This document shows, in pieces, positions 9,330-64,000 of a stretch of 64,000 bases of DNA. The notes beneath the pieces were generated by a model. It had not been told where the DNA came from, ran no database searches, and saw only the letters and a list, made by a program, of their open reading frames with translations. The stretch comes from Octopus sinensis (lineage: Eukaryota). Position 1 is the first letter of the stretch, and each line of letters begins with the position of its first letter. The translations under genes were made by a program, and so were the position numbers. The stretch spans positions 59,582,001-59,646,000 of the forward strand of contig NC_043010.1 of NCBI RefSeq assembly GCF_006345805.1, written 5' to 3'.

Positions 9330-9860
9330 AATTAGGTCAGGCATTCACTAACTATTATTGTCAATATTGTATTTACATTTTAAATTACACACACATTAAC
9401 AACATCAGCCATATTTTGTTAATATAACCTCTCTGTTCTAAGGATTTCTATGTCAGTCTCTCTCCACATCAGACATGTTGGTGTTATATAGACTTATCAT
9501 GGCTGACTGTTAGTGGAGCTGAAAATGCCTTTTCTCTTTCTGTCTCTCTATGTGAGAGGCAATACAACATGTCTGAGTGAGGGCAGACTAAGCATCATCC
9601 ATCCTACTCCCTCTCCCTTTCACACACACATACACAAACACACACACACGCATGTATATATACTCACACACACTAAACATCACTCCTCCACAGAGGAAGA
9701 CTGAGAGGGAACTGCTGGTTCCCACTGACTCACCACCAACACTATTCCATCAACATGAAGCCATTGTCACACCATAGCAGCAGTGACACAGACAACCATT
9801 AACAACAGAACATTGGGACCAAGTCACAGTTTATACAACAAAGGATTTTACACAATGAAG
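9330..9860 (+). promoter_or_regulatory. Conserved promoter and non-coding exon 1 of unit 2
   Basis: Same block as 2335-2830, ending ATGAAG|gtaagt. Confidence 0.8.
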
Positions 9861-12667: not shown

Positions 12668-14001
<1,334 letters not shown>

Positions 14002-15483: not shown

Positions 15484-17841
15484 ATGTTGTTACACCTGTG
15501 TGTTTTACTGACTTTCTTCCACTGTTATCTAAGTGAAGACATCACATACCATGTTGAAGAAGAGAATAGTCCCTATACCTATGTAGGGGACATTGCTACT
15601 GACCTACAGAAATCAGACAGCTCCTATTTAAAGAATAAGGATTTAATTACATTTAGTCAACTGCAACAAAAGGGAGAACAGTTGTTCAATGTGACGAGAA
15701 CAGGTAAACTGTACACTGTTGAGACATTGGATGCTGAGTCTGTGTGTAGTTATGAGAAAGAATGTTTTGAAATCGTTAAAGTTGCTGTTCACAAATCGAA
15801 GACATTTATGAAGATCTTAAAGATTAAAGTCATAATAGAAGACATCAATGACCACCAACCTGAGTTTCCAACTAAACAAGTCAACATTCAATTTTCAGAG
15901 AGAGATGGTAAAGGTTCAAAACTATCAATACCCAATGCTGTTGATAATGATATGGGTCATAAGAACAGCTTAGTAACATATGAATTAAAAAAGGATAATG
16001 GACAATTTTCTTTATCAGTTTCAAAACAAACAGATAAAATATCAACATTAGGAATTATTTTAGAAAACAAGTTAGACAGAGAAACAAAAGACAGTTACAA
16101 TATTGAAGTCATTGCTAAAGATGGGGGATCTCCACCAAAACAATCTATTTTAAATGTGAAAATATCTGTGGAAGATGAAAATGATAATCCACCGCAATTT
16201 TCTCAAAGTATCTACAATGTCTCTATTGAACATAAGCATAAAAAGAATGTTCCTGTAGTCACATTATCTGCCAGTGATTTAGATATTGGCAGGAATGGTA
16301 AAATATCTTTTTATTTTGCAAGGAAAACTGTAGGGAAAATGGAGAGGAACTTCAATTTAGATGAAAATACTGGGAAATTATATTTAGCTACATCTTCAAA
16401 AATTGATAAGGATGAGTCTTTTAAATTATACGTTGAAGCCAGAGATGATGGCAGTCCTCCTCTGAGTTCCATAGCAACGGTTATGGTAAATGTCATCAAC
16501 CAACACAACAATCCCCCAAATATTGATGTGAACTTTATTTCTACACAGAATCACAACACAGCCACCATTCTGGAAGACATCAAAGTTGGTAGTTTCATTG
16601 CTTATGTGATGGTCACTGACAACGATGTTGGACACAATGGAGAGGTGAACTGTCATATCAAAGATGACACATTCAAACTACAGTCAATGGGATCGAAGGA
16701 ATATAAAATAGTTCTAAAGAAAGCAGTAGACAGAGAGACACAGGAACATTATCACTTTACTGTGTCGTGTGAAGATAAAGGATTACCTGCTCTGAAAACT
16801 GATAAAGATCTGTCAATCCAAGTGTTGGATGTGAATGATGTAGAACCACACTTTACGAAAGACACATTCAAGTTCCTTACCTATGAGAATGACAAAGCTA
16901 ATTTCCCTATTGGCTTTATCAATGCTACAGACCCAGATATTGGTAAGGGAGGTGAATTGTCTTATTCTCTGAGAAATAAACAGCAATATCGTCTGCCATT
17001 CCAGATTATCAACTCTGGCTTTATTTCAACAAACCAGTCTTTAGACAGAGAACACAGAGATTTCTATGAGTTTGAGGTTTTTGTGAAAGACAATGGAAGC
17101 CCATCTCTGAATAACACAGTGAATGTTGAAGTGGAAGTATTGGATAGAAATGATAATGCTCCATATTTTACATTTCCTAGTGTTGACCCTTTCACTCTTA
17201 ATGTCCACTATCATCCGCAAAGTAAGAACGACATCACAGTTCTGAAAGCATCTGATATAGACAGTCACATGAATGCTTTTCTCAGGTATGAAATCGTTTC
17301 AGGTAACGAGAGACAGTTATTTAAACTGGACTCGTTCACTGGTGTGTTATCTTACTCTCGCACAGTTTACCAAAATGATGCCGGATCATATGAGCTTGAG
17401 TTTGTTGTGAAAGACAGTGGTACTCCAGTTCTGTCAGCAACAACTAGTGTGTCTTTGACACTGACTGTTAGTAACAAGACGTCACCAATGTTCACAGCTG
17501 TGCACCTACCAAGTGATAACACAATAGATGCGACATTGTTGATTATCATTGTAGTAGCAGCTGTGATAGTATCTATAGCTATTGTGGTTTCTATAACCCT
17601 GTGTATTGTGAGATGTAACAATGTGAGAAATAGCTCATCTGAAAGAACAGCAGAAGAGAAACAGGCATACCAATGTCGCAATGAGATGAGACAGTTGATC
17701 TATCAAGGTAACAACAGTGTACCTGTGATGTCAGGTAATCGAGGAGAGATGTCAGATAGATACGGTCATTCGAGGAGCCATTACTATCCTGAAGACTGGA
17801 AGACATCAACAATGAGCAGAAGTTTACCAAAAAGTATGAAG
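15484..17841 (+). CDS. Protocadherin unit 2, exon 2
   Basis: Same architecture as unit 1; acceptor ttcag|15434; in-frame upstream ATG at 15463 also possible; donor AAG|gtatgt. Confidence 0.96.
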
Positions 17842-19124: not shown

Positions 19125-19632
19125 AATTAGGTCAGACACACACACACTAACTGTTATTGTGAATATTGTATTTACATTTTAAATTACACACACATTAACA
19201 ACATCAGCCATATTTTGTTAATATAACCTCTCTGTTCTAAGGATTTCTATGTCAGTCTCTCTCCACATCAGACATGTTGGTGTTATATAGACTTATCATG
19301 GCTGACTGTTAGTGGAGCTGATAGTGTGTTGTCCCTCTCTTTTCATTGTGAGGGAAAACACATCAAGTCTGAGTGAGGCTGGAGTGAGCATCACCCATCT
19401 CTCTTCCTCTCTCTGTCTCTCACTCACACCCATGCACACACTCACTAAACACCACCCATCCACAGAGGAAGACTGAGAGGGAACTGCTGGTTCCCACTGA
19501 CTCACCACCAACACTATTCCATCAACATGAAGCCATTGTCACACCATAGCAGCAGTGACACAGACAACCATTAACAACAGAACATTGGGACCAAGTCACA
19601 GTTTATACAACAAAGGATTTTACACAATGAAG
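19125..19632 (+). promoter_or_regulatory. Conserved promoter and non-coding exon 1 of unit 3
   Basis: Same conserved block ending ATGAAG|gtaagt. Confidence 0.8.
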
Positions 19633-22520: not shown

Positions 22521-24878
22521 ATGTTGCTGTTTCTCTGTGTTTTATTGACTTTCTTCCACTGTTATCTAAGTGAAGATATCACATACCATGTTAAAGAAGA
22601 GAATATTCCTCATACCTATGTAGGGGACATAGCTACTGACCTACAAAAATCAGACAGCTCCTTCCTAAAGAATAAGGATTTAATTACATTTAGTCAACTG
22701 CAACAAAAGGGAGAACAGTTGTTCAATGTGACGAGAACAGGTAAACTGTACACTGTTGAGACATTGGATGCTGAGTCTGTGTGTAGTTATGAGAAAGAAT
22801 GTTTTGAAATCGTTAAAGTTGCAGTTCACAAATCCAAGACATTTATGAAGATCTTAAAGATTAAAGTCATCATAGAAGACATCAATGACCACCAACCTGA
22901 GTTTTCTGAGAAAGAAATCACGCTATACTTTGGTGAAGGTGATGGTAGAGGTATGAAGAAAACCATTCCTAATGCCATCGACAAAGATAACAGTTATGAG
23001 AACAGCATTATTAAATATGAACTACAAGACATTGATGGACATTTCTCTCTATCAGCTTTCAAGCGTGCAGATGGCATATCATCATTAGAAATTATTTTAG
23101 AAAAGAAATTAGACAGAGAAAAGAAAGACAGTTACAATATTGAAGTCATTGCTAAAGATGGGGGATCTCCCCCAAAACAATCTGTTTTAAATGTTAAAAT
23201 ATCTGTAAAAGACGAAAATGACAACAGACCACAGTTTTCTCAAAGTATCTACAATGTCTCTATTGAACATAAACATAAGAAGAACATTCCAGTAGTCACA
23301 GTATCTGCCAATGACTTAGACATTGGCAGGAATGGTAAAATATCTTTCTATTTCAGTCCGAAGACTGATATGCAAATGAAACAGTACTTTAATATTGATG
23401 AAAACTCTGGGAAAATATTCTTAATAAAATCTTTAGAGGTTGACACCAAAAATTCTTTAAAATTATACATTGAAGCTAAAGATAATGGAATTCCTCCTCT
23501 CAGTTCCATAGCAACCGTTATGGTAAATGTCATCAACCAACACAACAATCCCCCAAATATTGATGTGAACTTTATTTCTACACAGAATCACAACACAGCT
23601 ACCATTCTGGAAGACATCAAAGTTGGTAGTTTCATTGCTTATGTGATGGTCACTGACAATGATGTTGGACACAATGGAGAGGTGAACTGTCATATCAAAG
23701 ATGACACATTCAAACTACAGTCAATGGGATCGAAGGAATATAAAATAGTTCTAAAGAAAGCAGTAGACAGAGAGACACAGGAACATTATCACTTTACTGT
23801 GTCGTGTGAAGATAAAGGATTACCTGCTCTGAAAACTGATAAAGATCTGTCAATCCAAGTGTTGGATGTGAATGATGTAGAACCACACTTTACGAAAGAC
23901 ACATTCAAGTTCCTTACCTATGAGAATGACAAAGCTAATTTCCCTATTGGCTTTATCAATGCTACAGACCCAGATATTGGTAAGGGAGGTGAATTGTCTT
24001 ATTCTCTGAGAAATAAACAGCAATATCGTCTGCCATTCCAGATTATCAACTCTGGCTTTATTTCAACAAACCAGTCTTTAGACAGAGAACACAGAGATTT
24101 CTATGAGTTTGAGGTTTTTGTGAAAGACAATGGAAGCCCATCTCTGAATAACACAGTGAATGTTGAAGTGGAAGTATTGGATAGAAATGATAATGCTCCA
24201 TATTTTACATTTCCTAGTGTTGACCCTTTCACTCTTAATGTCCACTATCATCCGCAAAGTAAGAACGACATCACAGTTCTGAAAGCATCTGATATAGACA
24301 GTCACATGAATGCTTTTCTCAGGTACGAAATCGTTTCAGGTAACGAGAGACAGTTATTTAAACTGGACTCATTCACTGGTGTGTTATCTTACTCTCGCAC
24401 AGTTTACCAAAATGATGCCGGATCATATGAGCTTGAGTTTGTTGTGAAAGACAGTGGTACTCCAGTTCTGTCAGCAACAACTAGTGTGTCTTTGACACTG
24501 ACTGTTAGTAACAAGACGTCACCAATGTTCACAGCTGTGCACCTACCAAGTGATAACACAATAGATGCGACATTGTTGATTATCATTGTAGTAGCAGCTG
24601 TGATAGTATCTATAGCTATTGTGGTTTCTATAACCCTGTGTATTGTGAGATGTAACAATGTGAGAAATAGCTCATCTGAAAGAACAGCAGAAGAGAAACA
24701 GGCATACCAATGTCGCAATGAGATGAGACAGTTGATCTATCAAGGTAACAACAGTGTACCTGTGATGTCAGGTAATCGAGGAGAGATGTCAGACAGATAT
24801 GGTCATTCGAGGAGCCATTACTATCCTGAAGACTGGAAGACATCAACAATGAGCAGATCTCTTCAAAAGTCTACAAAG
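22521..24878 (+). CDS. Protocadherin unit 3, exon 2
   Basis: Six cadherin repeats plus TM; acceptor ttcag|22479; donor AAG|gtaagc. Confidence 0.96.
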
Positions 24879-32074: not shown

Positions 32075-34432
32075 ATGCAGTTATTTCTTTGTGTTTTACT
32101 GACTTTCTTCCATTGTTATGCAAGTGAAGATATCACATACCATGTTAAAGAAGAGAATATTCCTCATACCTATGTAGGGGACATTGCTATTGACTTACAG
32201 AAATCAGACAGCTCCTTCTTAAAGAATAAGGATTTAATTACATTTAGTCAACTGCAACAAAAGGGAGAACAGTTGTTCAATGTGACGAGAACAGGTAAAC
32301 TGTACACTGTTGAGACATTGGATGCTGAGTCTGTGTGTAGTTATGAGAAAGAATGTTTTGAAATCGTTAAAGTTGCAGTTCACAAATCCAAGACATTTAT
32401 GAAGATCTTAAAGATTAAAGTTATCATAGAAGACATCAATGACCACCAACCTGAGTTTCCAACTGAAGAAGTCAACATTCAGTTTTCAGAGAGAGATGGT
32501 AAAGGAGCAAAACTATCAATACCCAATGCTGTTGATAAAGATATGGGTCATAAGAACAGCTTGGTAACATATGAATTAAGAAATGATGACAGTTACTTTT
32601 CATTATTAATTGCCAAACAAGCTCATGAAATATCAACATTAGGAATTATTTTAGAAGAGAAATTAGACAGAGAGAAGAAAGACAATTATGATATTGAAGT
32701 CATTGCTAAAGATGGAGGAACTCCACCAAAAAAATCCATTTTAAATGTTAAAATATCTGTAAAAGATGAAAATGATAATCCACCACAATTTTCCCAAAGT
32801 ATCTACAATGTCTCTATAGAACATAAACATAAAAAGAATATTCCAGTTGTCACAGTATCTGCCAGTGATTTAGACATTGGCAGGAATGGTAAAATATCTT
32901 ATTATTTCAGTAGAAAGACTGCAGAAAAAATGAAGAGAAACTTTAATTTAGATGAAAGTACTGGGAAATTGTATTTAGCTACATCTTCAAAAATCGATAA
33001 GGATGAGTCTTTTAAATTATACATCGAAGCCAGAGATGATGGCAGTCCTCCTCTTAGTTCCATAGCAATGATTCAGATAAATGTTATTAATGAACACAAC
33101 AATCCCCCAAATATTGATGTGAACTTTATTTCTACACAGAATCACAACACAGCTACCATTCTGGAAGACATCAAAGTTGGTAGTTTCATTGCTTATGTGA
33201 TGGTCACTGACAATGATGTTGGACACAATGGAGAGGTGAACTGTCATATCAAAGACGACACATTCAAACTACAGTCAATGGGATCGAAGGAATATAAAAT
33301 AGTTCTAAAGAAAGCAGTAGACAGAGAGACACAGGAACATTATCACTTTACTGTGTCGTGTGAAGATAAAGGATTACCTGCTCTGAAAACTGATAAAGAT
33401 CTGTCAATCCAAGTGTTGGATGTGAATGATGTAGAACCACACTTTACGAAAGACACATTCAAGTTCCTTACCTATGAGAATGACAAAGCTAATTTCCCTA
33501 TTGGCTTTATCAATGCTACAGACCCAGATATTGGTAAGGGAGGTGAATTGTCTTATTCTCTGAGAAATAAACAGCAATATCGTCTGCCATTCCAGATTAT
33601 CAACTCTGGCTTTATTTCAACAAACCAGTCTTTAGACAGAGAACACAGAGATTTCTATGAGTTTGAGGTTTTTGTGAAAGACAATGGAAGCCCATCTCTG
33701 AATAACACAGTGAATGTTGAAGTGGAAGTATTGGATAGAAATGATAATGCTCCATATTTTACATTTCCTAGTGTTGACCCTTTCACTCTTAATGTCCACT
33801 ATCATCCGCAAAGTAAGAACGACATCACAGTTCTGAAAGCATCTGATATAGACAGTCACATGAATGCTTTTCTCAGGTATGAAATCGTTTCAGGTAACGA
33901 GAGACAGTTATTCAAACTGGACTCGTTCACTGGTGTGTTATCTTACTCTCGCACAGTTTACCAAAATGATGCCGGATCATATGAGCTTGAGTTTGTTGTG
34001 AAAGACAGTGGTACTCCAGTTCTGTCAGCAACAACTAGTGTGTCTTTGACACTGACTGTTAGTAACAAGACGTCACCAATGTTCACAGCTGTGCACCTAC
34101 CAAGTGATAACACAATAGATGCGACATTGTTGATTATCATTGTAGTAGCAGCTGTGATAGTATCTATAGCTATTGTGGTTTCTATAACCCTGTGTATTGT
34201 GAGATGTAACAATGTGAGAAATAGCTCATCTGAAAGAACAGCAGAAGAGAAACAGGCATACCAATGTCGCAATGAGATGAGACAGTTGATCTATCAAGGT
34301 AACAACAGTGTACCTGTGATGTCGGGTAATCGAGGAGAGATGTCAGACAGATATGGTCATTCAAGGAGCCATTACTATCCTGAAGACTGGAAGACATCGA
34401 CAATGAGCAGAAGTTTACCAAAAAGTATGAAG
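32075..34432 (+). CDS. Protocadherin unit 4, exon 2
   Basis: Acceptor tccag|32019; ATG homologous to the other units at 32075 (in-frame ATG at 32039 also possible); donor AAG|gtatgt. Confidence 0.96.
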
Positions 34433-38850: not shown

Positions 38851-39368
38851 AATTAGGTCAAACACCCTGAAACTGTTATTGTCAATATTGTATTTACATT
38901 TTAAATTACACACACATTAACAACATCAGCCATATTTTGTTAATATAACCTCTCTGTTCTAAGGATTTCTATGTCAGTCTCTCTCCACATCAGACATGTT
39001 GGTATTATATAGACTTATCATGGCTGACTGTTAGTGGAGCTGATTGTATGTAGTCTCTCTCTCTCTTTCTGTCTTTTCTGTGAGGGGAAACATAACATCT
39101 AATCTGAGTGAGGCTGGAGTGAGCATCACCCATCTCTCTTCCTCTCTCTGTCTCTCACTCACACCCATGCACACACTCACTAAACACCACCCATCCACAG
39201 AGGAAGACTCGAGAGGGAACTGCTGGTTCCCACTGACTCACCACCAACACTATTCCATCAACATGAAGCCATTGTCACACCATAGCAGCAGTGACACAGA
39301 CAACCATTAACAACAGAACATTGGGACCAAGTCACACTTTATACAACAAAGGATTTTACACAATGACG
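38851..39368 (+). promoter_or_regulatory. Conserved promoter and non-coding exon 1 of unit 5
   Basis: Same block; donor variant ATGACG|gtaagt. Confidence 0.8.
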
Positions 39369-41492: not shown

Positions 41493-43847
41493 ATGTTGCT
41501 ATTCCTATGCATTTTACTGACTTTTTTCCACTGTTATTTAAGTGAAGACATCACATACCATGTTGAAGAAGAGAATGGTCCTTATACATATATAGGGGAC
41601 ATTGCTGCTGACTTGCAGAAATCAGACAGCTCCTTCTTAAAGAATAAGGATTTAATTACATTTAGTCAACTGCAACAAAAGGGAGAACAGTTGTTCAATG
41701 TGACGAGAACAGGTAAACTGTACACTGTTGAGACATTGGATGCTGAGTCTGTGTGTAGTTATGAGAAAGAATGTTTTGAAATCGTTAAAGTTGCTGTTCA
41801 CAAATCCAAGACATTTATGAAGATCTTAAAGATTAAAGTCATAATAGAAGACATCAATGACCACCAACCTGAGTTTCCTGAGAAAGAAATTACTCTACAT
41901 TTTCGGGAAAGTGATGGCAAAGGTATGAAGAAGGCTATACCCAGTGCTATTGACAAAGATGTTGGATATCAGAACAGTTTTATTGAATATGTACTACATG
42001 GTGATGGACATTTTTCTTTATCCCAGTCAAAATTAACTGATGAAATATCAATATTAGAAATTATTTTAAATGAGAAATTAGACAGAGAAAAGAAAAACAG
42101 TTACAATATTGAAGTCATTGCTAAAGATGGGGGAACTCCACCAAAACAATCTGTTTTAAATGTTAAAATATCTGTGGAAGATGAAAATGACAATAGGCCA
42201 CAATTTTCTCAACATATTTACAATGTCTCTATAGAACATAAACATAAAAAGAATATTCCAGTAGTCACATTATCTGCCACTGATTTAGATATTGGCAGGA
42301 ATGGTAAAATATCTTTCTACTTCAGTCAAAAAACTGATGTGAAGATGAGAAAATATTTTCTTTTGAACGAAACTACAGGAATGTTATATTTAGTTAAATC
42401 ATTAGAATTTGGAAAAGAAGAGGAGTTTAAATTATATGTGGAAGCCAGGGATAATGGCATTTCCCCTTTAAGTTCTCTGGCAATCATTCAAATAAATGTC
42501 ATCAATGAACACAACAATCCCCCAAATATTGATGTGAACTTTATTTCTTCACAGAATCACAACACAGCAACCATTCTGGAAGACATCAAAGTTGGTAGTT
42601 TCATTGCTTATGTGATGGTCACTGACAATGATGTTGGACACAATGGAGAGGTGAACTGTCATATCAAAGACGACACATTCAAACTACAGTCAATGGGATC
42701 GAAGGAATATAAAATAGTTCTAAAGAAAGCAGTAGACAGAGAGACACAGGAACATTATCACTTTACTGTGTCGTGTGAAGATAAAGGATTACCTGCTCTG
42801 AAAACTGATAAAGATCTGTCGATCCAAGTGTTGGATGTGAATGATGTAGAACCACACTTTACGAAAGACACATTCAAGTTCCTTACCTATGAGAATGACA
42901 AAGCTAATTTCCCTATTGGCTTTATCAATGCTACAGACCCAGATATTGGTAAGGGAGGTGAATTGTCTTATTCTCTGAGAAATAAACAGCAATATCGTCT
43001 GCCATTCCAGATTATCAACTCTGGCTTTATTTCAACAAACCAGTCTTTAGACAGAGAACACAGAGATTTCTATGAGTTTGAGGTTTTTGTGAAAGACAAT
43101 GGAAGCCCATCTCTGAATAACACAGTGAATGTTGAAGTGGAAGTATTGGATAGAAATGATAATGCTCCATATTTTACATTTCCTAGTGTTGACCCTTTCA
43201 CTCTTAATGTCCACTATCATCCGCAAAGTAAGAACGACATCACAGTTCTGAAAGCATCTGATATAGACAGTCACATGAATGCTTTTCTCAGGTATGAAAT
43301 CGTTTCAGGTAACGAGAGACAGTTATTTAAACTGGATTCGTTCACTGGTGTGTTATCTTACTCTCGCACAGTTTACCAAAATGATGCCGGATCATATGAG
43401 CTTGAGTTTGTTGTGAAAGACAGTGGTACTCCAGTTCTGTCAGCAACAACTAGTGTGTCTTTGACACTGACTGTTAGTAACAAGACGTCACCAATGTTCA
43501 CAGCTGTGCACCTACCAAGTGATAACACAATAGATGCAACATTGTTGATTATCATTGTAGTAGCAGCTGTGATAGTATCTATAGCTATTGTGGTTTCTAT
43601 AACCCTGTGTATTGTGAGATGTAACAATGTGAGAAATAGCTCATCCGAAAGAACAGCAGAAGAGAAACAGGCATACCAATGTCGCAATGAGATGAGACAG
43701 TTGATCTATCAAGGTAACAACAGTGTACCTGTGATGTCAGGTAATCGAGGAGAGATGTCAGACAGATATGGTCATTCGAGGAGCCATTACTATCCAGATG
43801 ACTGGAAGATGTCAACAATGAGCAGAAGTCTTCAAAAGTCCACCAAG
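41493..43847 (+). CDS. Protocadherin unit 5, exon 2 (785 codons; one-residue deletion in EC2)
   Basis: Acceptor ttcag|41433; six cadherin repeats plus TM; donor AAG|gtaacc. Confidence 0.96.
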
Positions 43848-47223: not shown

Positions 47224-47724
47224 AATTAGGTCAGACACACTCTATTATTGTCAATATTGTATTTACATTTTAAATTACACACACATTAACAACATCAGCC
47301 ATATTTTGTTAATATAACCTCTCTGTTCTAAGGATTTCTATGTCAGTCTCTCTCCACATCAGACATGTTGGTGTTATATAGACTTATCATGGCTGACTGT
47401 TAGTGGAGCTGATAGTGTGTTGTCCCTCTCTTTTCTTTGTGAGGGAAAACACATCAAGTCTGAGTGAGGCTGGAGTGAGCATCACCCATCTCTCTTCCTC
47501 TCTCTGTCTCTCACTCACACCCATGCACACACTCACTAAACACCACACATCCACAGAGGAAGACTTGAGAGGGAACTGCTGGTTCCCACTGACTCACCAC
47601 CAACACTATTCCATCAACATGAAGCCATTGTCACACCATAGCAGCAGTGACACAGACAACCATTAACAACAGAACATTGGGACCAAGTCACAGTTTATAC
47701 AACAAAGGATTTTACACAATGAAG
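47224..47724 (+). promoter_or_regulatory. Conserved promoter and non-coding exon 1 of unit 6
   Basis: Same conserved block ending ATGAAG|gtaagt. Confidence 0.8.
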
Positions 47725-51700: not shown

Positions 51701-53072
51701 TGTTGATATATTTTGTGTTGAAGATTTGAAAATTCCAGTTGATTTCCTACTACGTGTCTCTACTGAAGGAATTCTCAGTAATAAGTAAAACCCATAAAAG
51801 AAAGAAACCCAAAACACATCAGCTTTGCAAGCTGGAAGTACCAAAGAGAGGTGCTTTTAGGAAATATGATAATACTACTACAAAAGCAACCAAGTCATTA
51901 AATCTGCTGGCCCTTGTTAGTTGATTGATATAAGACTAGATTCTTCATGACATTCTAAAATATTCTATTTTAATCTGTTATTCTTTCAGGAAATAATATC
52001 TTTTTAAATAAAATATATAAAAAAAAATGTGAGCATACATATTCTTTCTGTTATCAAGTATAGGGGCTCTCTTTAAGTTTCTCTATATTTGGGATCTGTA
52101 TCAAAAAGGGTTGGAGACTATTGCCATATGTAATATTATTGTGGAGTAATTAAACTTAGACCTTGATAGTAACACTTGTTTCCCAACTTGTATTGCATAA
52201 TTTGGTAGCCGTTTCTTTACAGTGCATTTTTAATTATTACATTCTTAAATGTATATAATGAATTTTTCGCATTTTCCTGGGAATTATCATGGTTACTAAT
52301 AGTGGATTAATGTTTTTATTTATGACAAAATTTATTTGTCTTATTCGAAGTAATTGTAATTAGGATACTGGTGAGTTGAGTAGTAAGCTGATATTTATAA
52401 TGTAGGACCGTAATAATATATTTCAGATGAATATAATCTAAATTGGTGTCATTGACATTGGCAAGCATTCAAATGTTACAGTTAATTTGAAATTATTGCA
52501 GAAAGTACCACTTGCTGGCTTAATATAGTATTAATGTAGAAAAATCACACTTGCTGTAACAATTGATTTTAAATCAAACGTGTTCAGACATTGTCTTTGT
52601 CTCATAGCTAAGACCTACTTCCTAACACTTGCCACACAAATTATATAGCCGTAAGGAAGACCTGTTTTATTTCAAAAATTATGGCCAATAAATTGCTTAT
52701 TCTTCTACAATACACAAAACATTAAAATTTTTATTTATACAATTCCTAATAATATTTGTCTATAAAAGCAAGATAGGATTTTAATACGTCAAATGACTGT
52801 GAGGATCCATCTGAGTAAGAGAGGAATCAAAGAGGTCCATAGGTAAAAAAATCATTGAGAAACACTGGTCCCGATGATATTTGAGGATTCAGCAATCAAC
52901 ACTACAAAATGTAATTAGTTTCTTAAATAGAATTCAAAATGAGTCAAAATAATAATTAATCTCAGTGATACCTCTGGAAACTTTTATTCATTACAATATA
53001 TATATTTTTTTGCAGATTGAATATCTAAAACCATCATTTCCCTGGATACTTTAATAGCCCCCAAGACCAGAG

Positions 53073-55430
53073 ATGTTGTTACACCTGTGTGTTCTACTAA
53101 CTTTATTCCACTGTTATCTAAGTGAAGATATCACATACCATGTTGAAGAAGAGAATGGTCCTTATACATATATAGGGGACATTGCTGCTGACTTACAGCA
53201 ATCAGACAGCTCCTTCTTAAAGAATAAGGATTTAATAACATTTAGTCAACTGCAACAAAAGGGAGAACAGTTGTTCAATGTGACGAGAACAGGTAAACTG
53301 TACACTGTTGAGACATTGGATGCTGAGTCTGTGTGTAGTTATGAGAAAGAATGTTTTGAAATCGTTAAAGTTGCTGTTCACAAATCCAAGACATTTATGA
53401 AGATCTTAAAGATTAAAGTCATAATAGAAGACATCAATGACCACCAACCTGAGTTTCCAACTAAACAAGTCAACATTCAGTTTTCAGAGAGAGATGGTAA
53501 AGGAGCAAAACTATCAATACCCAATGCCATGGATAAAGATATAAGTTATCAAAACAGCTTAATTAATTATGAATTAAAAAATGATAGGGAACATTTCTCA
53601 CTATTAGTCTCTAAAAGAGCAGATGGAATATCTACGTTAGGAATTATTTTAGAAAAGAAATTAGACAGAGAAACGAAAGACAGTTACGATATTGAAGTCA
53701 TTGCTAAAGATGGGGGAACTCCACCAAAACAATCCATTTTAAATGTGAAAATATCTGTAGAAGACGAAAATGATAATCCACCACAATTTTCCCAAAGTAT
53801 CTACAATGTCTCTATTGAACATAAACATAAAAAGATTATTCCAGTAGTCACATTATCTGCCAGTGATTTAGACATTGGCAGGAATGGTAAAATATCTTTC
53901 TATTTCAGTCCGAAGACTGATATGCAAATGAAACAGTATTTTAATATTGATGAAAACTCTGGGAAAATATTCTTAATAAAATCTTTAGCGGTTGACACCA
54001 AAAATTCTTTAAAATTATATATTGAAGCTAAAGATAATGGAATTCCTCCTTTGAGTTCCATAGCAACTGTTATGGTAAATGTCATCAACCAACACAACAA
54101 TCCCCCAAATATTGATGTGAACTTTATTTCTACACAGAATCATAACACAGCTACCATTCTGGAAGACATCAAAGTTGGTAGTTTCATTGCTTATGTGATG
54201 GTCACTGACAATGATGTTGGACACAATGGAGAGGTGAACTGTCATATCAAAGATGACACATTCAAACTACAGTCAATGGGATCGAAGGAATATAAAATAG
54301 TTCTAAAGAAAGCAGTAGACAGAGAGACACAGGAACATTATCACTTTACTGTGTCGTGTGAAGATAAAGGATTACCTGCTCTGAAAACTGATAAAGATCT
54401 GTCAATCCAAGTGTTGGATGTGAATGATGTAGAACCACACTTTACGAAAGACACATTCAAGTTCCTTACCTATGAGAATGACAAAGCTAATTTCCCTATT
54501 GGCTTTATCAATGCTACAGACCCAGATATTGGTAAGGGAGGTGAATTGTCTTATTCTCTGAGAAATAAACAGCAATATCGTCTGCCATTCCAGATTATCA
54601 ACTCTGGCTTTATTTCAACAAACCAGTCTTTAGACAGAGAACACAGAGATTTCTATGAGTTTGAGGTTTTTGTGAAAGACAATGGAAGCCCATCTCTGAA
54701 TAACACAGTGAATGTTGAAGTGGAAGTATTGGATAGAAATGATAATGCTCCATATTTTACATTTCCTAGTGTTGACCATTTCACTCTTAATGTCCACTAT
54801 CATCCGCAAAGTAAGAACGACATCACAGTTCTGAAAGCATCTGATATAGACAGTCACATGAATGCTTTTCTCAGGTATGAAATCGTTTCAGGTAACGAGA
54901 GACAGCTATTTAAACTGGACTCGTTCACTGGTGTGTTATCTTACTCTCGCACAGTTTACCAAAATGATGCCGGATCATATGAGCTTGAGTTTGTTGTGAA
55001 AGACAGTGGTACTCCAGTTCTGTCAGCAACAACTAGTGTGTCTTTGACACTGACTGTTAGTAACAAGACATCACCAATGTTCACAGCTGTGCACCTACCA
55101 AGTGATAACACAATAGATGCGACATTGTTGATTATCATTGTAGTAGCAGCTGTGATAGTATCTATAGCTATTGTGGTTTCTATAACCCTGTGTATTGTGA
55201 GATGTAACAATGTGAGAAATAGCTCATCTGAAAGAACAGCAGAAGAGAAACAGGTATACCAATGTCGCAATGAGATGAGACAGTTGATCTATCAAGGTAA
55301 CAACAGTGTACCTGTGATGTCAGGTAATCGAGGAGAGATGTCAGACAGATACAGTCATTCGAGGAGCCATTACTATCCTGAAGACTGGAAGACGTCGACA
55401 ATGAGCAGATCTCTTCAAAAGTCTACAAAG
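53073..55430 (+). CDS. Protocadherin unit 6, exon 2
   Basis: Acceptor tgcag|53016; six cadherin repeats plus TM; donor AAG|gtaagc. Confidence 0.96.
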
Positions 55431-56308: not shown

Positions 56309-56462
56309 CAAAAATACAGTCAACCCATTGAGGTGACATCTTATGGAGACAACAGACCATCTTCTCACTATCCCACTGACACATTGACCAGTCGTAAGAG
56401 CAGTGGACAGTGCTGGAGTGAGCGGTCAAGCAGACAGTATGAAGAAATACCAGCAATGTCAG
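56309..56462 (+). CDS. Protocadherin unit 6, exon 3
   Basis: ttttcag|CAAAAATAC...TCAG|gtaaaa. Confidence 0.92.
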
Positions 56463-58059: not shown

Positions 58060-58880
58060 TATTCAAGGAAGCAAACTTTGCAGAATTGCTGTAACATTTG
58101 AAACTCTCTCATTGCGCATCAATACATTTAGTAATTCAAAAATAGGTTAAAAAAAAATTCACATATAATTACAAAACAAATACGTTATTCTATGTGGCTT
58201 CCATTGGTTGCAATTACGGCTTCCACATGGCCCCAGTTGTTTTGTTCTGAAGATGCCACTGATGTCGGCTGTTGACACCACAATGTACCGGTTGTTTCAC
58301 AACCGGTTCACAACAGCATCCTGTTCTTCTTGAAGTATGTGAGAACCTTTTTGCACCTCTCCAGTCTCTGAGCCTTCATAGGTTCTATCAACAGGTGTCT
58401 TGGTGTCCTGGTGTAGGACTTGTGGCCCAAGTCATTATTCACAGCTGTTCTGATGATTTTGGGGTCCACTTCAAGTTCAGAAGCCAGCTTCTGCATGGAT
58501 GTGGTTGGGTCCATTGAAATTTTGGATTTGAGGGTGTTGATGAAGTCTTGATTCCACTTCTTGTTGACCCCACTGCTGCCAGACTTCTGAATGTCATTGC
58601 CTATGTCCATTCTCTTCTTAATGTTATAAACTGTGTGTAAGGATACTCCAACTATGGTTGAGATCCTCTTCAGATTGACTTGAGCATGGACCAAATCACA
58701 TATTCATTGGCTTGTGTCTTCCTGCACAATTATTTTCTTTAATATTCCTGCAAAAAAATGAGTTTATTATTAGCTGACAGTGTATTCTTTGATCTGCTTT
58801 AGATTTCATATCCTTTGATGTTGTGGTTACTGCGAAATATTAGTGTAACTTTAATGCAAATTTTGTTTCCCCACCCTGTA
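58060..58880 (-). mobile_element. Internally deleted Tc1/mariner (maT-like) element
   Basis: ORF 58308-58694 encodes a paired-HTH transposase N-terminus ('ISTIVGVSLHTVYNIKKR...PTTSMQKLASELEV...DLGHKSY'); C-terminal 'VEAVIATNGSHIE*' at ~58187-58230; no DDD segment; end 'tacagggtggggaaacaaaatttgca'. Confidence 0.8.
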
Positions 58881-59447: not shown

Positions 59448-59569
59448 GAATCTATGGTGGTGCCCCACCCGATGTATCAAGCACCAGTGAGAGAGACCAT
59501 TACCAAGACAGATATGTGAAACCTCCAGAGAGACAGTTACCTTCAACACCAGATGTTGTTGCCAGTTAA
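59448..59569 (+). CDS. Protocadherin unit 6, exon 4
   Basis: Conserved last exon; ends DVVAS*; short deletion just after the stop. Confidence 0.92.
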
Positions 59570-62826: not shown

Positions 62827-64000
62827 CAGGGGTCTCCAAAGTACGGCCCGCGGGCCGGATTCGGCCCGCCAAGGTTTTTAATCCGGCCCGCCGAGCTGTC
62901 CTCCAAAATTATAAAACAAATGTCGAAAAACAAGCCTTGCCGAAATCATACAAAAACAAATATACTTTACACCCCTTTTAATACGTTTGACAAATATAGT
63001 ACAGCAAATAGACGCAAGACGACGCTAATTGATTTGCCATCAATTAATGTCTTTAAATTGCGCCGGCGAATTAAAAATTTATACACTAAACTTTAGTGTA
63101 AATATAGGTTCTTTTCCACTCCCCCCGTTTTAACTGACCCATCAGAACCACCATAAAATGAATTAACTTCGCTATGGAGCTACCTATCATTCATCTTAGA
63201 TAATAGGCGATTGTCAGTGAGATGGATGGTGCTGCTTACAATGAAGCAGAGATTCAATTTCTAGCTTTATTGATGTCGCAGAAAAGTCAACCTATTCCGT
63301 CAACTGTCGAGAGAGCAGATACGACAAGTATGACGTTAATAAAAGTCCCGTGCCTAGTATAATAAAAGAAGACAAATATCGATTTATCGATGTTACCTAC
63401 ATCTCACGAGCGATGAATAGAGAGGGTTGAGCCTGACGTTGTGTGGTGGTTTCTAATCCTGGTGCAGTCACCAATCAGCGTGGAGTAAAGTTCGATGCGC
63501 ATTCCGTCAGTCAGCACAGACTTGGCGTTTTCGTTGTGCACAAGTGTGAGTCATTTGTCGTCGTCGCTGCCGAAGTGAATGCACGTATCGAGTGACCTGT
63601 GAATATTGTTTTTACTTGTTTCGTCCTTTTACATATATCGTCGAGCAAAATCTGTCGACCCATAGTAAAAATGTTAGCTCAAGGAAGAAAACGAAAAATC
63701 GACTCTGAGTGTAGAGTTTTTAAGAAACAATGGAACATAGACTATTTTGTCATAGAGTCAAACAACAAGGCACTATGCGTTATATGCACCGACACAATTG
63801 CAGTACTTAAAGAGTACAACATTCGGAGACATTATGAAAAAAAGCATTCATCACAGTACTACCAATTCATTGGACAGCTACGTAAAGAGAAATTTGACAA
63901 ATTAAAGAAGAATTTATCATCAATGCAGTTTGTTTTCAAGAAGAAGGCTGTAGAAAAAGAGAGAGCAACAAGAGCAAGCTTCCATGTTGCTAACCTTTTG
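62827..64000 (+). mobile_element. hAT transposon (Buster/Charlie/SPIN-like), left part
   Basis: TIR 'caggggtctccaaagtacggcccgcgggccggattcggcccgcc'; preceding 8-mer GTTTAGAC has the central TA typical of Buster-family targets; CpG-rich compared with the flank; transposase ORF inside. Confidence 0.92.
63671..64000 (+). CDS. hAT transposase N-terminus with BED zinc finger (runs off window)
   Basis: MLAQGRKRKIDSECRVFKKQWNIDYFVIESNNKALCVICTDTIAVLKEYNIRRHYEKKH...; 110 open codons; CxxC...HxxxxH; resembles GTF2IRD2/SPIN-type transposases. Confidence 0.9.
   Translation, partial: MLAQGRKRKIDSECRVFKKQWNIDYFVIESNNKALCVICTDTIAVLKEYNIRRHYEKKHSSQYYQFIGQLRKEKFDKLKKNLSSMQFVFKKKAVEKERATRASFHVANLL

What the first reader, a model, noticed from the sequence alone, without database searches (positions are those of the whole stretch)
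53455..54100. Combinatorial shuffling of sub-domain modules; unit 6 is a clear chimera
Seen: EC3 core has three types: A in units 1/5 (SQKTDVKMRKYF..EFGKEE), B in 2/4 (ATSSKIDKDESF) and C in 3/6 (SPKTDMQMKQYFNIDENSGK). The EC2 start has two types: KEITL.F (1/3/5) and VNIQFSERDGKG (2/4/6). The last EC3 strand is TVMVNVINQH (2/3/6) or IQINVINEH (1/4/5). The EC1 start is ENGPYTYIG (1/5/6) or ENIPHTYVG (3/4). Unit 6 joins a 1/5-type EC1 start, a 2/4-type EC2 start, the unit-3 'KRADGIS' and a unit-3 EC3. These partitions do not fit one tree. Conserved islands (EVIAKDGG, YNVSIEHKHKK, DLDIGRNGKIS) sit between the variable blocks. Inference: new specificities arise by germline segment exchange that uses the conserved islands as crossover points.
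Basis: partly seen in the sequence, partly recalled or inferred. Interest (0 to 1): 0.82.

Follow-up and report, generated by a model that had tools for sequence, protein, structure and literature searches.

The report
Patchwork octopus nerve-adhesion genes
About forty neighbouring octopus genes for nerve-cell adhesion proteins are patchworks of shared DNA blocks, some block types also found in the paper nautilus, most likely because the copies overwrite pieces of one another in the germline, which would keep producing new versions of the surface by which nerve cells are predicted to recognise each other.

Summary
The window holds six complete protocadherin genes of a 42-copy head-to-tail octopus array. 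Among 29 core copies, segment trees conflict far beyond a no-recombination null (dlogL 665 vs at most 45 in 30 simulations). Shared blocks share codons, and contigs from three studies bridge unit 6's junction. Three details fail. Unit 6's downstream partner is the next copy outside the window, not unit 3. Its KRADGIS uses other codons than unit 3's. The three named islands are not enriched for breakpoints (5% vs 8-11% under uniform, 24-27% under island-anchored simulation). Unit 6's combination also occurs in O. bimaculoides and Argonauta, so direction is unknown. EC4-6 is homogenised within species, while EC2/EC3 block lineages cross the Octopus-Argonauta split. Shuffling is not free: the EC2 start swaps independently, but EC2 loop residues 182/185 stay tied to the EC3 core, possibly a kept lock-and-key. 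Best reading: germline interlocus gene conversion. That process is known for vertebrate protocadherins, but there EC2/EC3 are reported as spared. The scan noted the same pattern earlier in another genome (e1-9545755). New specificities are untested.

The parts
47693..47723 (+). 3' end of a 5' non-coding leader exon, the nearest copy upstream of U6 (its start was not mapped). A near-identical copy precedes most genes of the array.
   Evidence: Loose end of contigs in X1 and X3 joined to the acceptor near 53014; exact matches at 9829, 19601 and 47693; 39 copies in the fetched DNA. Which copy is spliced to U6 cannot be told.
53073..55430 (+). U6 (g17) large coding exon: signal peptide, EC1-EC6, TM, proximal tail (786 aa), ends at a GT donor
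53073..53207 (+). U6 signal peptide (0 of 60 nt differences to U1) and EC1 start (nearest U5/U1)
53208..53450 (+). EC1 body, homogenised among the core copies (pS 0.069); likely upstream anchor for conversion tracts
   Evidence: anchor role inferred
53451..53522 (+). EC2 start block (A strand to start of B strand), V-type. 2-5 nt from U4, U2, g06 and g07; 24-37 nt from K-type copies. Independent of EC3 type.
   Evidence: strands
53522..53528 (+). U6 switch from U4-type to g18-type sequence, in IPNA|M and outside the named islands
   Evidence: bridged by contigs in X1, X2 and X3
53604..53633 (+). EC2 beta4-beta5 (D-E) loop, SKRADGIS. Residues R182 and G185 covary with EC3 type.
   Evidence: loop assignment
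53694..53717 (+). Conserved island EVIAKDGG; pN/pS 0.03; not enriched for breakpoints
53802..53834 (+). Conserved island YNVSIEHKHKK; pN/pS 0.02
53865..53897 (+). Conserved island DLDIGRNGKIS; pN/pS 0.03
53901..54032 (+). EC3 core, C-type (Phe-X10/11-Phe loop to F strand). 2 nt from g18, 3 from U3; lineage shared with Argonauta.
54033..54107 (+). EC3 F-G loop and G strand block
54108..55430 (+). EC4-EC6, TM and tail, 97-99% identical to U6 in g03-g42 (EC4-6 pS 0.004-0.046) and species-specific
56309..56462 (+). U6 coding exon 2 (97% mean identity among 39 copies)
59448..59569 (+). U6 coding exon 3 to the stop codon
5622..7979 (+). U1 (g12) large coding exon: K-type EC2 start, EC3 A
15484..17841 (+). 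U2 (g13) large coding exon: V-type EC2 start, EC3 B
22521..24878 (+). U3 (g14) large coding exon: K-type EC2 start, EC3 C
32075..34432 (+). U4 (g15) large coding exon: V-type EC2 start, EC3 B
41493..43847 (+). U5 (g16) large coding exon: K-type EC2 start, EC3 A

Best explanation
These full-length octopus protocadherin genes are mosaics of shared DNA blocks, most likely made by repeated germline gene conversion (and some unequal crossing-over) between copies of the tandem array. Shown: EC4-6 is nearly identical within a species, EC1 is nearly identical within the core subfamily, and EC2-EC3 is a patchwork of block lineages also present in Argonauta. Whole introns are shared between non-neighbouring copies. 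Copies on two small contigs that match array positions carry other block combinations. Inferred: tracts likely start in long identical stretches (EC1 body and EC1-EC2 linker, EC4 onward, small exons) and end at short similarities inside the variable region, so the EC2 start block moves freely. The EC2 D-E loop stays with its EC3 type, probably in part because selection removes copies whose two predicted trans-contact surfaces no longer match. New combinations would then tune recognition without breaking self-binding; this last step is untested.
For: Tree conflict: summed dlogL 665 vs null mean 29, max 45 in 30 simulations. Mosaic/best-single mismatch ratio 0.45 vs at least 0.79 in 20 nulls. 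Strict painting gives 84 switches vs 12-21 in 6 nulls. Shared blocks share codons. Silent homogenisation reaches the divergent subfamilies: pS 0.004-0.047 in EC4-6 vs about 0.7 in EC1-3. EC4-6 splits 28 octopus from 22 Argonauta rows with support 100, while species monophyly is rejected for the EC2 start (p-AU 0.011) and EC3 core (3e-5). Introns are shared at 95-97% by g06/g28, g10/g12 and g07/g08/g13/g14 despite different EC3 types, so exchange is at DNA level; U6's own introns and upstream DNA have no close match, so it is not a fresh duplicate of g18. Copy x4 at the g31 position has 0 differences in EC3 core but a g06-type EC2 start and is tiled without mismatch in 1 of 4 runs. Linkage to EC3 type: z>3 at 11 of 18 D-E-loop sites, 3 of 42 intervening sites and 1 of 42 EC2-start sites. 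The corresponding loops are specificity regions in vertebrate dimers (PMC5001838).
Against: Silent-only PHI is weak (p 0.41 in the window, 0.018 in the core, 0.90 in EC3 alone). pN/pS is 0.38-0.40 in the main variable blocks, so there is no direct signal of positive selection. The D-E/EC3 link is weak at segment level in this genome (Mantel r 0.11, p 0.053 with the Phe-X-Phe loop). In Argonauta the intervening region is as linked (0.47) as the loop (0.28), so shared ancestry can explain it. The 64-of-65 class table uses rules set after seeing the data, with two catch-all classes, and the [QE][AD]DG loop pairs with several different EC3 types. Direction and non-reciprocity are not shown. The small contigs could be extra paralogues rather than alleles (non-coding flanks of x2 and x3 only 95-97% alike). 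GC at fourfold sites shows no clear conversion signature.
Confidence: 0.8

Rival explanations
1. One reading: blocks are swapped freely by crossovers that use the three short conserved islands as preferred exchange points.
For: The islands lie between variable blocks, and their silent diversity (0.16-0.27) is below that of the blocks (0.44-0.58). Some block ends fall in the 720-830 stretch. Tracts wholly inside near-identical DNA cannot be seen.
Against: Breakpoint share in the islands is 5% vs 24-27% in island-anchored simulations; in all low-diversity stretches it is 12% vs 54-58%. EC2b and the EC3 core remain linked across the islands. Island pN/pS of 0.02-0.03 fits structural constraint on cadherin calcium-binding and core motifs (motif role recalled).
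Confidence: 0.07
2. Neutral version of conversion: the patchwork and the D-E/EC3 link arise only from homology dependence and shared ancestry, with no selection on matched surfaces and no effect on specificity.
For: pN/pS below 1 everywhere; broad linkage in Argonauta; short tracts in the conserved middle can erase local linkage without separating the flanks (inference).
Against: Equally divergent EC2-start blocks and whole introns do move between copies, yet D-E loop and EC3 type rarely part, also where the loop is encoded by different codons (U3 vs U6). G185 and R182 give the top shared EC2-EC3 covariation signals in both species.
Confidence: 0.4
3. Assembly artefact: collapsed or mis-polished repeats mixed reads from different copies.
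For: More than 1.3 kb is near-identical across 40 copies; 8 of 42 copies have frame breaks; duplicate small contigs exist.
Against: Single contigs bridge U6's junction in 3 of 4 runs, from 3 studies. Combinations recur in other species: O. vulgaris P0130 matches g31 in EC2-EC3 (3 differences), and O. bimaculoides P0001 is U6-like.
Confidence: 0.04
4. Convergent amino-acid evolution on one gene tree.
For: True for short motifs such as KRADGIS (retained or convergent, different codons); silent-only PHI is weak.
Against: pS is 0-0.12 within shared blocks vs 0.44-0.8 beside them; shared introns.
Confidence: 0.03
5. Somatic exchange in neurons adds diversity on top of the genome.
For: None found.
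Against: Contigs of presumed RNA runs match the assembled combinations, and the combinations are inherited across species. Contigs drop rare variants, so this is not excluded.
Confidence: 0.03

Closest known systems
Coleoid tandem protocadherin sub-arrays (Albertin et al. 2022, PMC9068888, passages read; PMC6339937, passages; PMC9795677, section 7 and passages)
   Same: Full-gene duplicates in the same orientation on octopus chromosome 14; gene conversion was proposed from whole-gene trees.
   Different: The passages seen give no domain-level or breakpoint analysis. Here conversion is shown to be regional, EC2-3 is a patchwork, and block lineages cross species. PMC9795677 dates one cluster at 8-14 Ma from paralogue distances; if that is this array (not established), homogenisation would make it look too young.
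Regional gene conversion in vertebrate clustered protocadherins (fugu PMC1852091 and Xenopus PMC4978886, passages read; Noonan 2004 not held, known only through their citations)
   Same: Over 99% identical 3' ectodomain within a subcluster; divergence concentrated in EC2-EC3.
   Different: Those papers state that EC2/EC3 seldom or never undergo conversion. Here EC2-EC3 holds most detectable breakpoints. Vertebrates splice variable exons to shared constant exons; here every copy has its own exons 2 and 3.
EC2/EC3 specificity code of vertebrate protocadherin dimers (PMC5001838, passages and section 7; 10.1101/493106, PMC8901172 and PMC5106212, passages)
   Same: The variable blocks include the EC2 beta4-beta5 loop and the EC3 Phe-X10-Phe loop, named there as specificity regions; EC1/EC4, the non-selective affinity pair, is nearly constant here.
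   Different: No binding data were found or produced for these octopus proteins; the array is a separate expansion.
Dscam exon diversification by staggered homologous recombination (Lee et al. 2010; title seen only in a reference list; paper not held) and patchwork MHC or var genes (MHC recalled; var PMC4270465, search listing only)
   Same: A recognition-molecule family whose variable surfaces are mosaics of old segments.
   Different: Whole genes rather than alternative exons; there is no evidence here for somatic or mitotic exchange, or for an immune role.

Membership tests
Protocadherin | Signal peptide, six cadherin repeats and TM in one large exon | tested here: met
   Pfam Cadherin_2 plus 5 Cadherin stretches; best PDB sequence hits are protocadherins; single exon
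Protocadherin | EC1-4 fold like solved protocadherins | tested here: met
   Model pLDDT 86; top Foldseek hits are protocadherin EC1-4/6 at E about 1e-44
Protocadherin | Antiparallel EC1-4 homophilic dimer | not tested
Coleoid tandem PCDH sub-array | Head-to-tail full multi-exon duplicates in one orientation | tested here: met
   42 copies on + over C14 59.418-59.872 Mb; own exons 2 and 3 and own leader; named homologues are octopod
Vertebrate clustered Pcdh (alpha/gamma) | Variable exons spliced to shared constant exons | tested here: not met
   Each copy has its own downstream exons
Vertebrate clustered Pcdh (alpha/gamma) | Stochastic promoter choice (CSE/CTCF) | not tested
   A conserved upstream leader block exists per gene; its regulation was not examined
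Vertebrate clustered Pcdh conversion pattern | EC1 and EC4-6 homogenised, EC2-3 divergent | tested here: met
Vertebrate clustered Pcdh conversion pattern | EC2/EC3 spared from conversion | tested here: not met
   PHI within EC2 and within EC3 p=0.0005
Interlocus gene conversion / concerted evolution | Silent-site identity in bounded tracts between otherwise divergent paralogues | tested here: met
Interlocus gene conversion / concerted evolution | Paralogues more alike within than between species in homogenised regions | tested here: met
Interlocus gene conversion / concerted evolution | Non-reciprocal transfer (vs unequal crossing-over) | not testable with these tools
   U6's unique flanks favour patching, but copy-number differences on small contigs allow crossovers
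Interlocus gene conversion / concerted evolution | Raised third-position GC in converted regions | tested here: inconclusive
   GC3 0.35-0.40 vs 0.18-0.30, but GC4 0.26-0.34 vs 0.13-0.37
Somatic diversification (Ig conversion, vlsE, VSG type) | New combinations arise in somatic cells from silent donors | not testable with these tools
   Only contigs were available; 34 of 42 copies have an open frame, so the array is not a silent-donor bank

The most novel reading that the evidence does not exclude
The octopus array is an MHC-like shuffling system for neuronal barcodes. Selection keeps old lock-and-key pairs (EC2 D-E loop with EC3 core) across octopods, while an independent EC2 A-strand cassette is swapped among genes and still segregates between haplotypes, so individual octopuses carry different self-recognition repertoires.
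Probability: 0.33. Interest if true: 0.82.

Novelty: new variant of a known kind. Interest (0 to 1): 0.57.

Why it matters
Cephalopods expanded protocadherins independently of vertebrates, and how their near-identical copies could encode distinct identities is open. This array offers natural chimeras with constant EC1 body and EC4-6, a free EC2-start cassette and a tied EC2/EC3 pair, so the specificity code can be tested with a small panel of natural genes. It also contrasts with vertebrate reports that EC2/EC3 escape conversion, and it warns that whole-gene trees and dates of cephalopod protocadherin expansions are distorted by homogenisation.

Tried and rejected
AU tests of each segment's own tree against the others rejected all alternatives, but that comparison favours the own tree, so I rely on the simulation-calibrated version. 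Permissive painting gave 218 switches, but the null also gave 117 on average, so breakpoint placement used strict settings; about a fifth of the 84 may still be false. The conversion simulations act on tip sequences only. cDNA-templated conversion was considered because identity falls to background within about 20 nt of splice sites; rejected as the main route because introns travel between copies and none of the 39 copies examined lacks intron 1. Long-range splicing of U2's leader to U6 was considered; it is not needed, as an identical leader lies at 47693. Positive selection was not found by mean pN/pS; no site model was run. Missing cover of x4 in X12 and X5 is not evidence of absence. Rows dropped: the core set is 29 of 42 C14 copies (g01, g03 and g32-g42 left out as divergent subfamilies); g02 was also left out of the EC4-end PHI test, the EC5-onward pS/pN values and the cross-species comparisons (28 rows); g01, g02 and g33 were left out of the intron analysis (39 rows). 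Argonauta rows are 22 core-type proteins chosen (clustered at 90%, so not the full array). Eight divergent or gapped units and one misaligned unit were left out of the 65-row class table. Three papers were not held (Noonan 2004, Rubinstein 2015, Lee 2010). Ten literature searches showed no paper on sub-domain mosaicism in cephalopod protocadherins; subscription papers (Albertin 2015, Wang and Ragsdale 2017) and the supplements of the papers read were not seen and may bear on novelty.

Full report
What is there. The window carries six ORFs on the + strand, each a 785-786-codon exon ending at a GT donor. They encode a signal peptide, six cadherin repeats, a TM segment and a proximal tail; the best solved relatives are protocadherins by sequence and by fold. 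Each unit has its own exons 2 and 3 and a conserved non-coding leader exon; contigs in two runs join such a leader to U6's acceptor. The window is G000:C14:59582001-59646000. Fetched stretches show 42 copies head to tail over 59.418-59.872 Mb, with U1-U6 as g12-g17; 8 of 42 have frame breaks (error or pseudogene, not tested). Named homologues are octopod, with Octopus sinensis records on a contig of C14's length and many Argonauta hians members. I analysed 29 core copies (g02, g04-g31), whose EC1-3 is at least 83% identical to U6.

Observation. PHI gives p=0.0005 for the six units and for the core; on silent-only sites it is 0.41 and 0.018. Letting six segments have their own trees gains 665 log-likelihood units, against a mean of 29 and a maximum of 45 in 30 no-recombination simulations with the same site rates. 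A mosaic of paralogues explains each copy with 3.3% mismatch against 7.4% for the best single paralogue; that ratio of 0.45 compares with at least 0.79 in 20 nulls.

Unit 6 corrected. U6 paints as U1 signal peptide, U5-like EC1 start, U4-type EC2 start, then g18 from nt 451 to 1050 (17 differences). The switch lies at 53522-53528. KRADGIS differs from U3 at 4 of 7 codons and also occurs in divergent paralogues, so it was not imported from U3. U6's introns and upstream DNA have no close relative. The same combination is present in O. bimaculoides P0001 and Argonauta P0006/P0149, so U6 may be donor as well as recipient. The junction is not an assembly error: single contigs bridge it in X1, X2 and X3 (3 of 4 runs, 3 studies; X12 did not bridge it by the 31-letter rule).

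Islands. With strict painting (84 switches vs 12-21 in 6 nulls), the three named islands take 5.1% of breakpoint mass in EC2-3 while covering 13% of its length. Simulations give 8-11% for uniform tract ends and 24-27% for island-anchored ends (8 runs for each of four settings); 54% of the observed mass lies in variable EC2. The islands have pN/pS 0.02-0.03 and pS 0.16-0.27, which fits structural cadherin motifs (role recalled) rather than exchange signals.

Two regimes. EC4-6 has pS 0.004-0.046 in the core and 0.004-0.047 even to subfamilies whose EC1-3 has pS about 0.7. It separates 28 octopus from 22 Argonauta rows with support 100. In contrast, for the EC2 start, EC2b, EC3 core and EC3 end the nearest Argonauta protein is closer than the median octopus paralogue in 26-28 of 28 copies, and species monophyly is rejected (p-AU 0.011 and 3e-5; short alignments). 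V-type EC2 starts of both species form one group (support 99). The blocks are therefore old lineages, reassorted among genes. pN/pS in them is 0.32-0.40; no positive selection is shown.

DNA-level and probably ongoing. Introns are shared at 95-97% by g06/g28, g10/g12, g11/g19/g21 and g07/g08/g13/g14, across different EC3 types. Two small contigs parallel parts of the array. On C12667, x4 at the g31 position has g31's EC3 core (0 differences) but a g06-type EC2 start. On C10512, x3 sits in g07/g08-type flanks but has an A-type EC3 (x3 has indels). Run X4 tiles x4 over about 600 nt with four overlapping contigs and no other letters (1 of 4 runs); it may not be independent of the assembly. These copies may be alleles or extra paralogues.

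Not free shuffling. All 29 core copies differ in block combination, with 22 EC2-start x EC3-core pairs. The EC2 start is unlinked to the EC3 core (r -0.05), whereas EC2b is linked (r 0.26-0.27, p 0.0003). An earlier scan note (e1-9545755) prompted a finer test. Association with EC3 type reaches z>3 at 11 of 18 D-E-loop sites, 10 of 45 sites just upstream, 3 of 42 sites between the loop and the core, and 1 of 42 EC2-start sites. G185 and R182 head the EC2-EC3 pairs that covary in both species. With rules set after seeing the data, 64 of 65 units in four species fit a loop-class to EC3-class mapping, while V/K EC2 starts occur with three of four EC3 classes. Against this: two classes are catch-alls, the segment-level link to the Phe-X-Phe loop is marginal here (p 0.053), and in Argonauta the intervening region is linked as well. 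In vertebrate dimers the EC2 beta4-beta5 loop and the EC3 Phe-X10-Phe loop are specificity regions and EC1/EC4 supplies affinity (PMC5001838). Matched-surface selection is thus plausible, somewhat better than even, but not shown.

Mechanism. Shown: mosaic structure, codon-level sharing, regional homogenisation, trans-species blocks, shared introns. Inferred: germline conversion started in long identical stretches and ended at short similarities; some unequal crossing-over; selection against homogenising EC2-3 and against mismatched loop/EC3 pairs. Untested: homophilic binding, new specificities, somatic exchange.

Known and new. Conversion was proposed for octopus protocadherins from whole-gene trees (PMC9068888; PMC6339937) and is documented for vertebrate clusters, where EC2/EC3 are said to be spared (PMC4978886; PMC1852091). 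My ten searches showed no sub-domain analysis for cephalopods, but key subscription papers and supplements were not seen. Verdict: a real and well-supported new variant of a known process, with the island hypothesis rejected and the functional pay-off open. Interest 0.57.

Noticed in passing
window 9829-9860, 19601-19632, about 28390, 39337-39368, 47693-47724, about 60620: Each gene's leader exon and upstream block lies about 1 kb after the previous gene's stop codon and is homogenised (39 copies); identical leaders leave open which promoter drives which gene.
   Followed up: partly
window 56309-56462 and its copies: Exon 2 is 97% identical among 39 copies, while identity drops to about 0.4 within 20 nt of the splice sites; intron 1 ranges from 210 to 3175 nt.
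   Followed up: partly
window 56309-56314: Tandem CAG-CAG/CAA acceptor at exon 2; database proteins occur with and without the Q (P0002 vs P0005), suggesting NAGNAG splicing.
   Followed up: no
L031 2469-4829 (g32): A divergent-subfamily copy (EC1-3 65% identical to U6) carries a core-type EC2 start (8% from g09), and its O. vulgaris counterpart P0122 has a different EC2 start.
   Followed up: partly
L030 2474-4831 (g31): Hybrid EC3 core: B-like first half, C-like second half; the same in O. vulgaris P0130 and in x4.
   Followed up: partly
window 63596-64000 and L017 3-1406: hAT/SPIN-type transposon between U6 and g18 (zf-C2H2_12, Dimer_Tnp_hAT).
   Followed up: partly
window 58308-58703 (-) and 13097-13447 (-): Likely transposase remnants; weak HTH_23 hit for the first, no Pfam hit for the second (Tc1/mariner look recalled).
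   Followed up: no
L034 5339-8000 (g35); L045 7281-7526: g35 has an insertion of about 300 nt in EC3 with rearranged pieces; an isolated 246-nt TM/tail fragment lies about 30 kb past the array.
   Followed up: no
L010, L011, L041 near codon 533: Frame breaks recur at the same T-run in EC5 in three copies, which suggests homopolymer errors rather than pseudogenes.
   Followed up: no
P0006-P0017, P0148, P0149 (Argonauta): Argonauta has expanded the C-type EC3 lineage (12 of 22 rows vs 3 of 28 here) with both V and K EC2 starts and a loop class (QTDL) not seen in this genome.
   Followed up: partly
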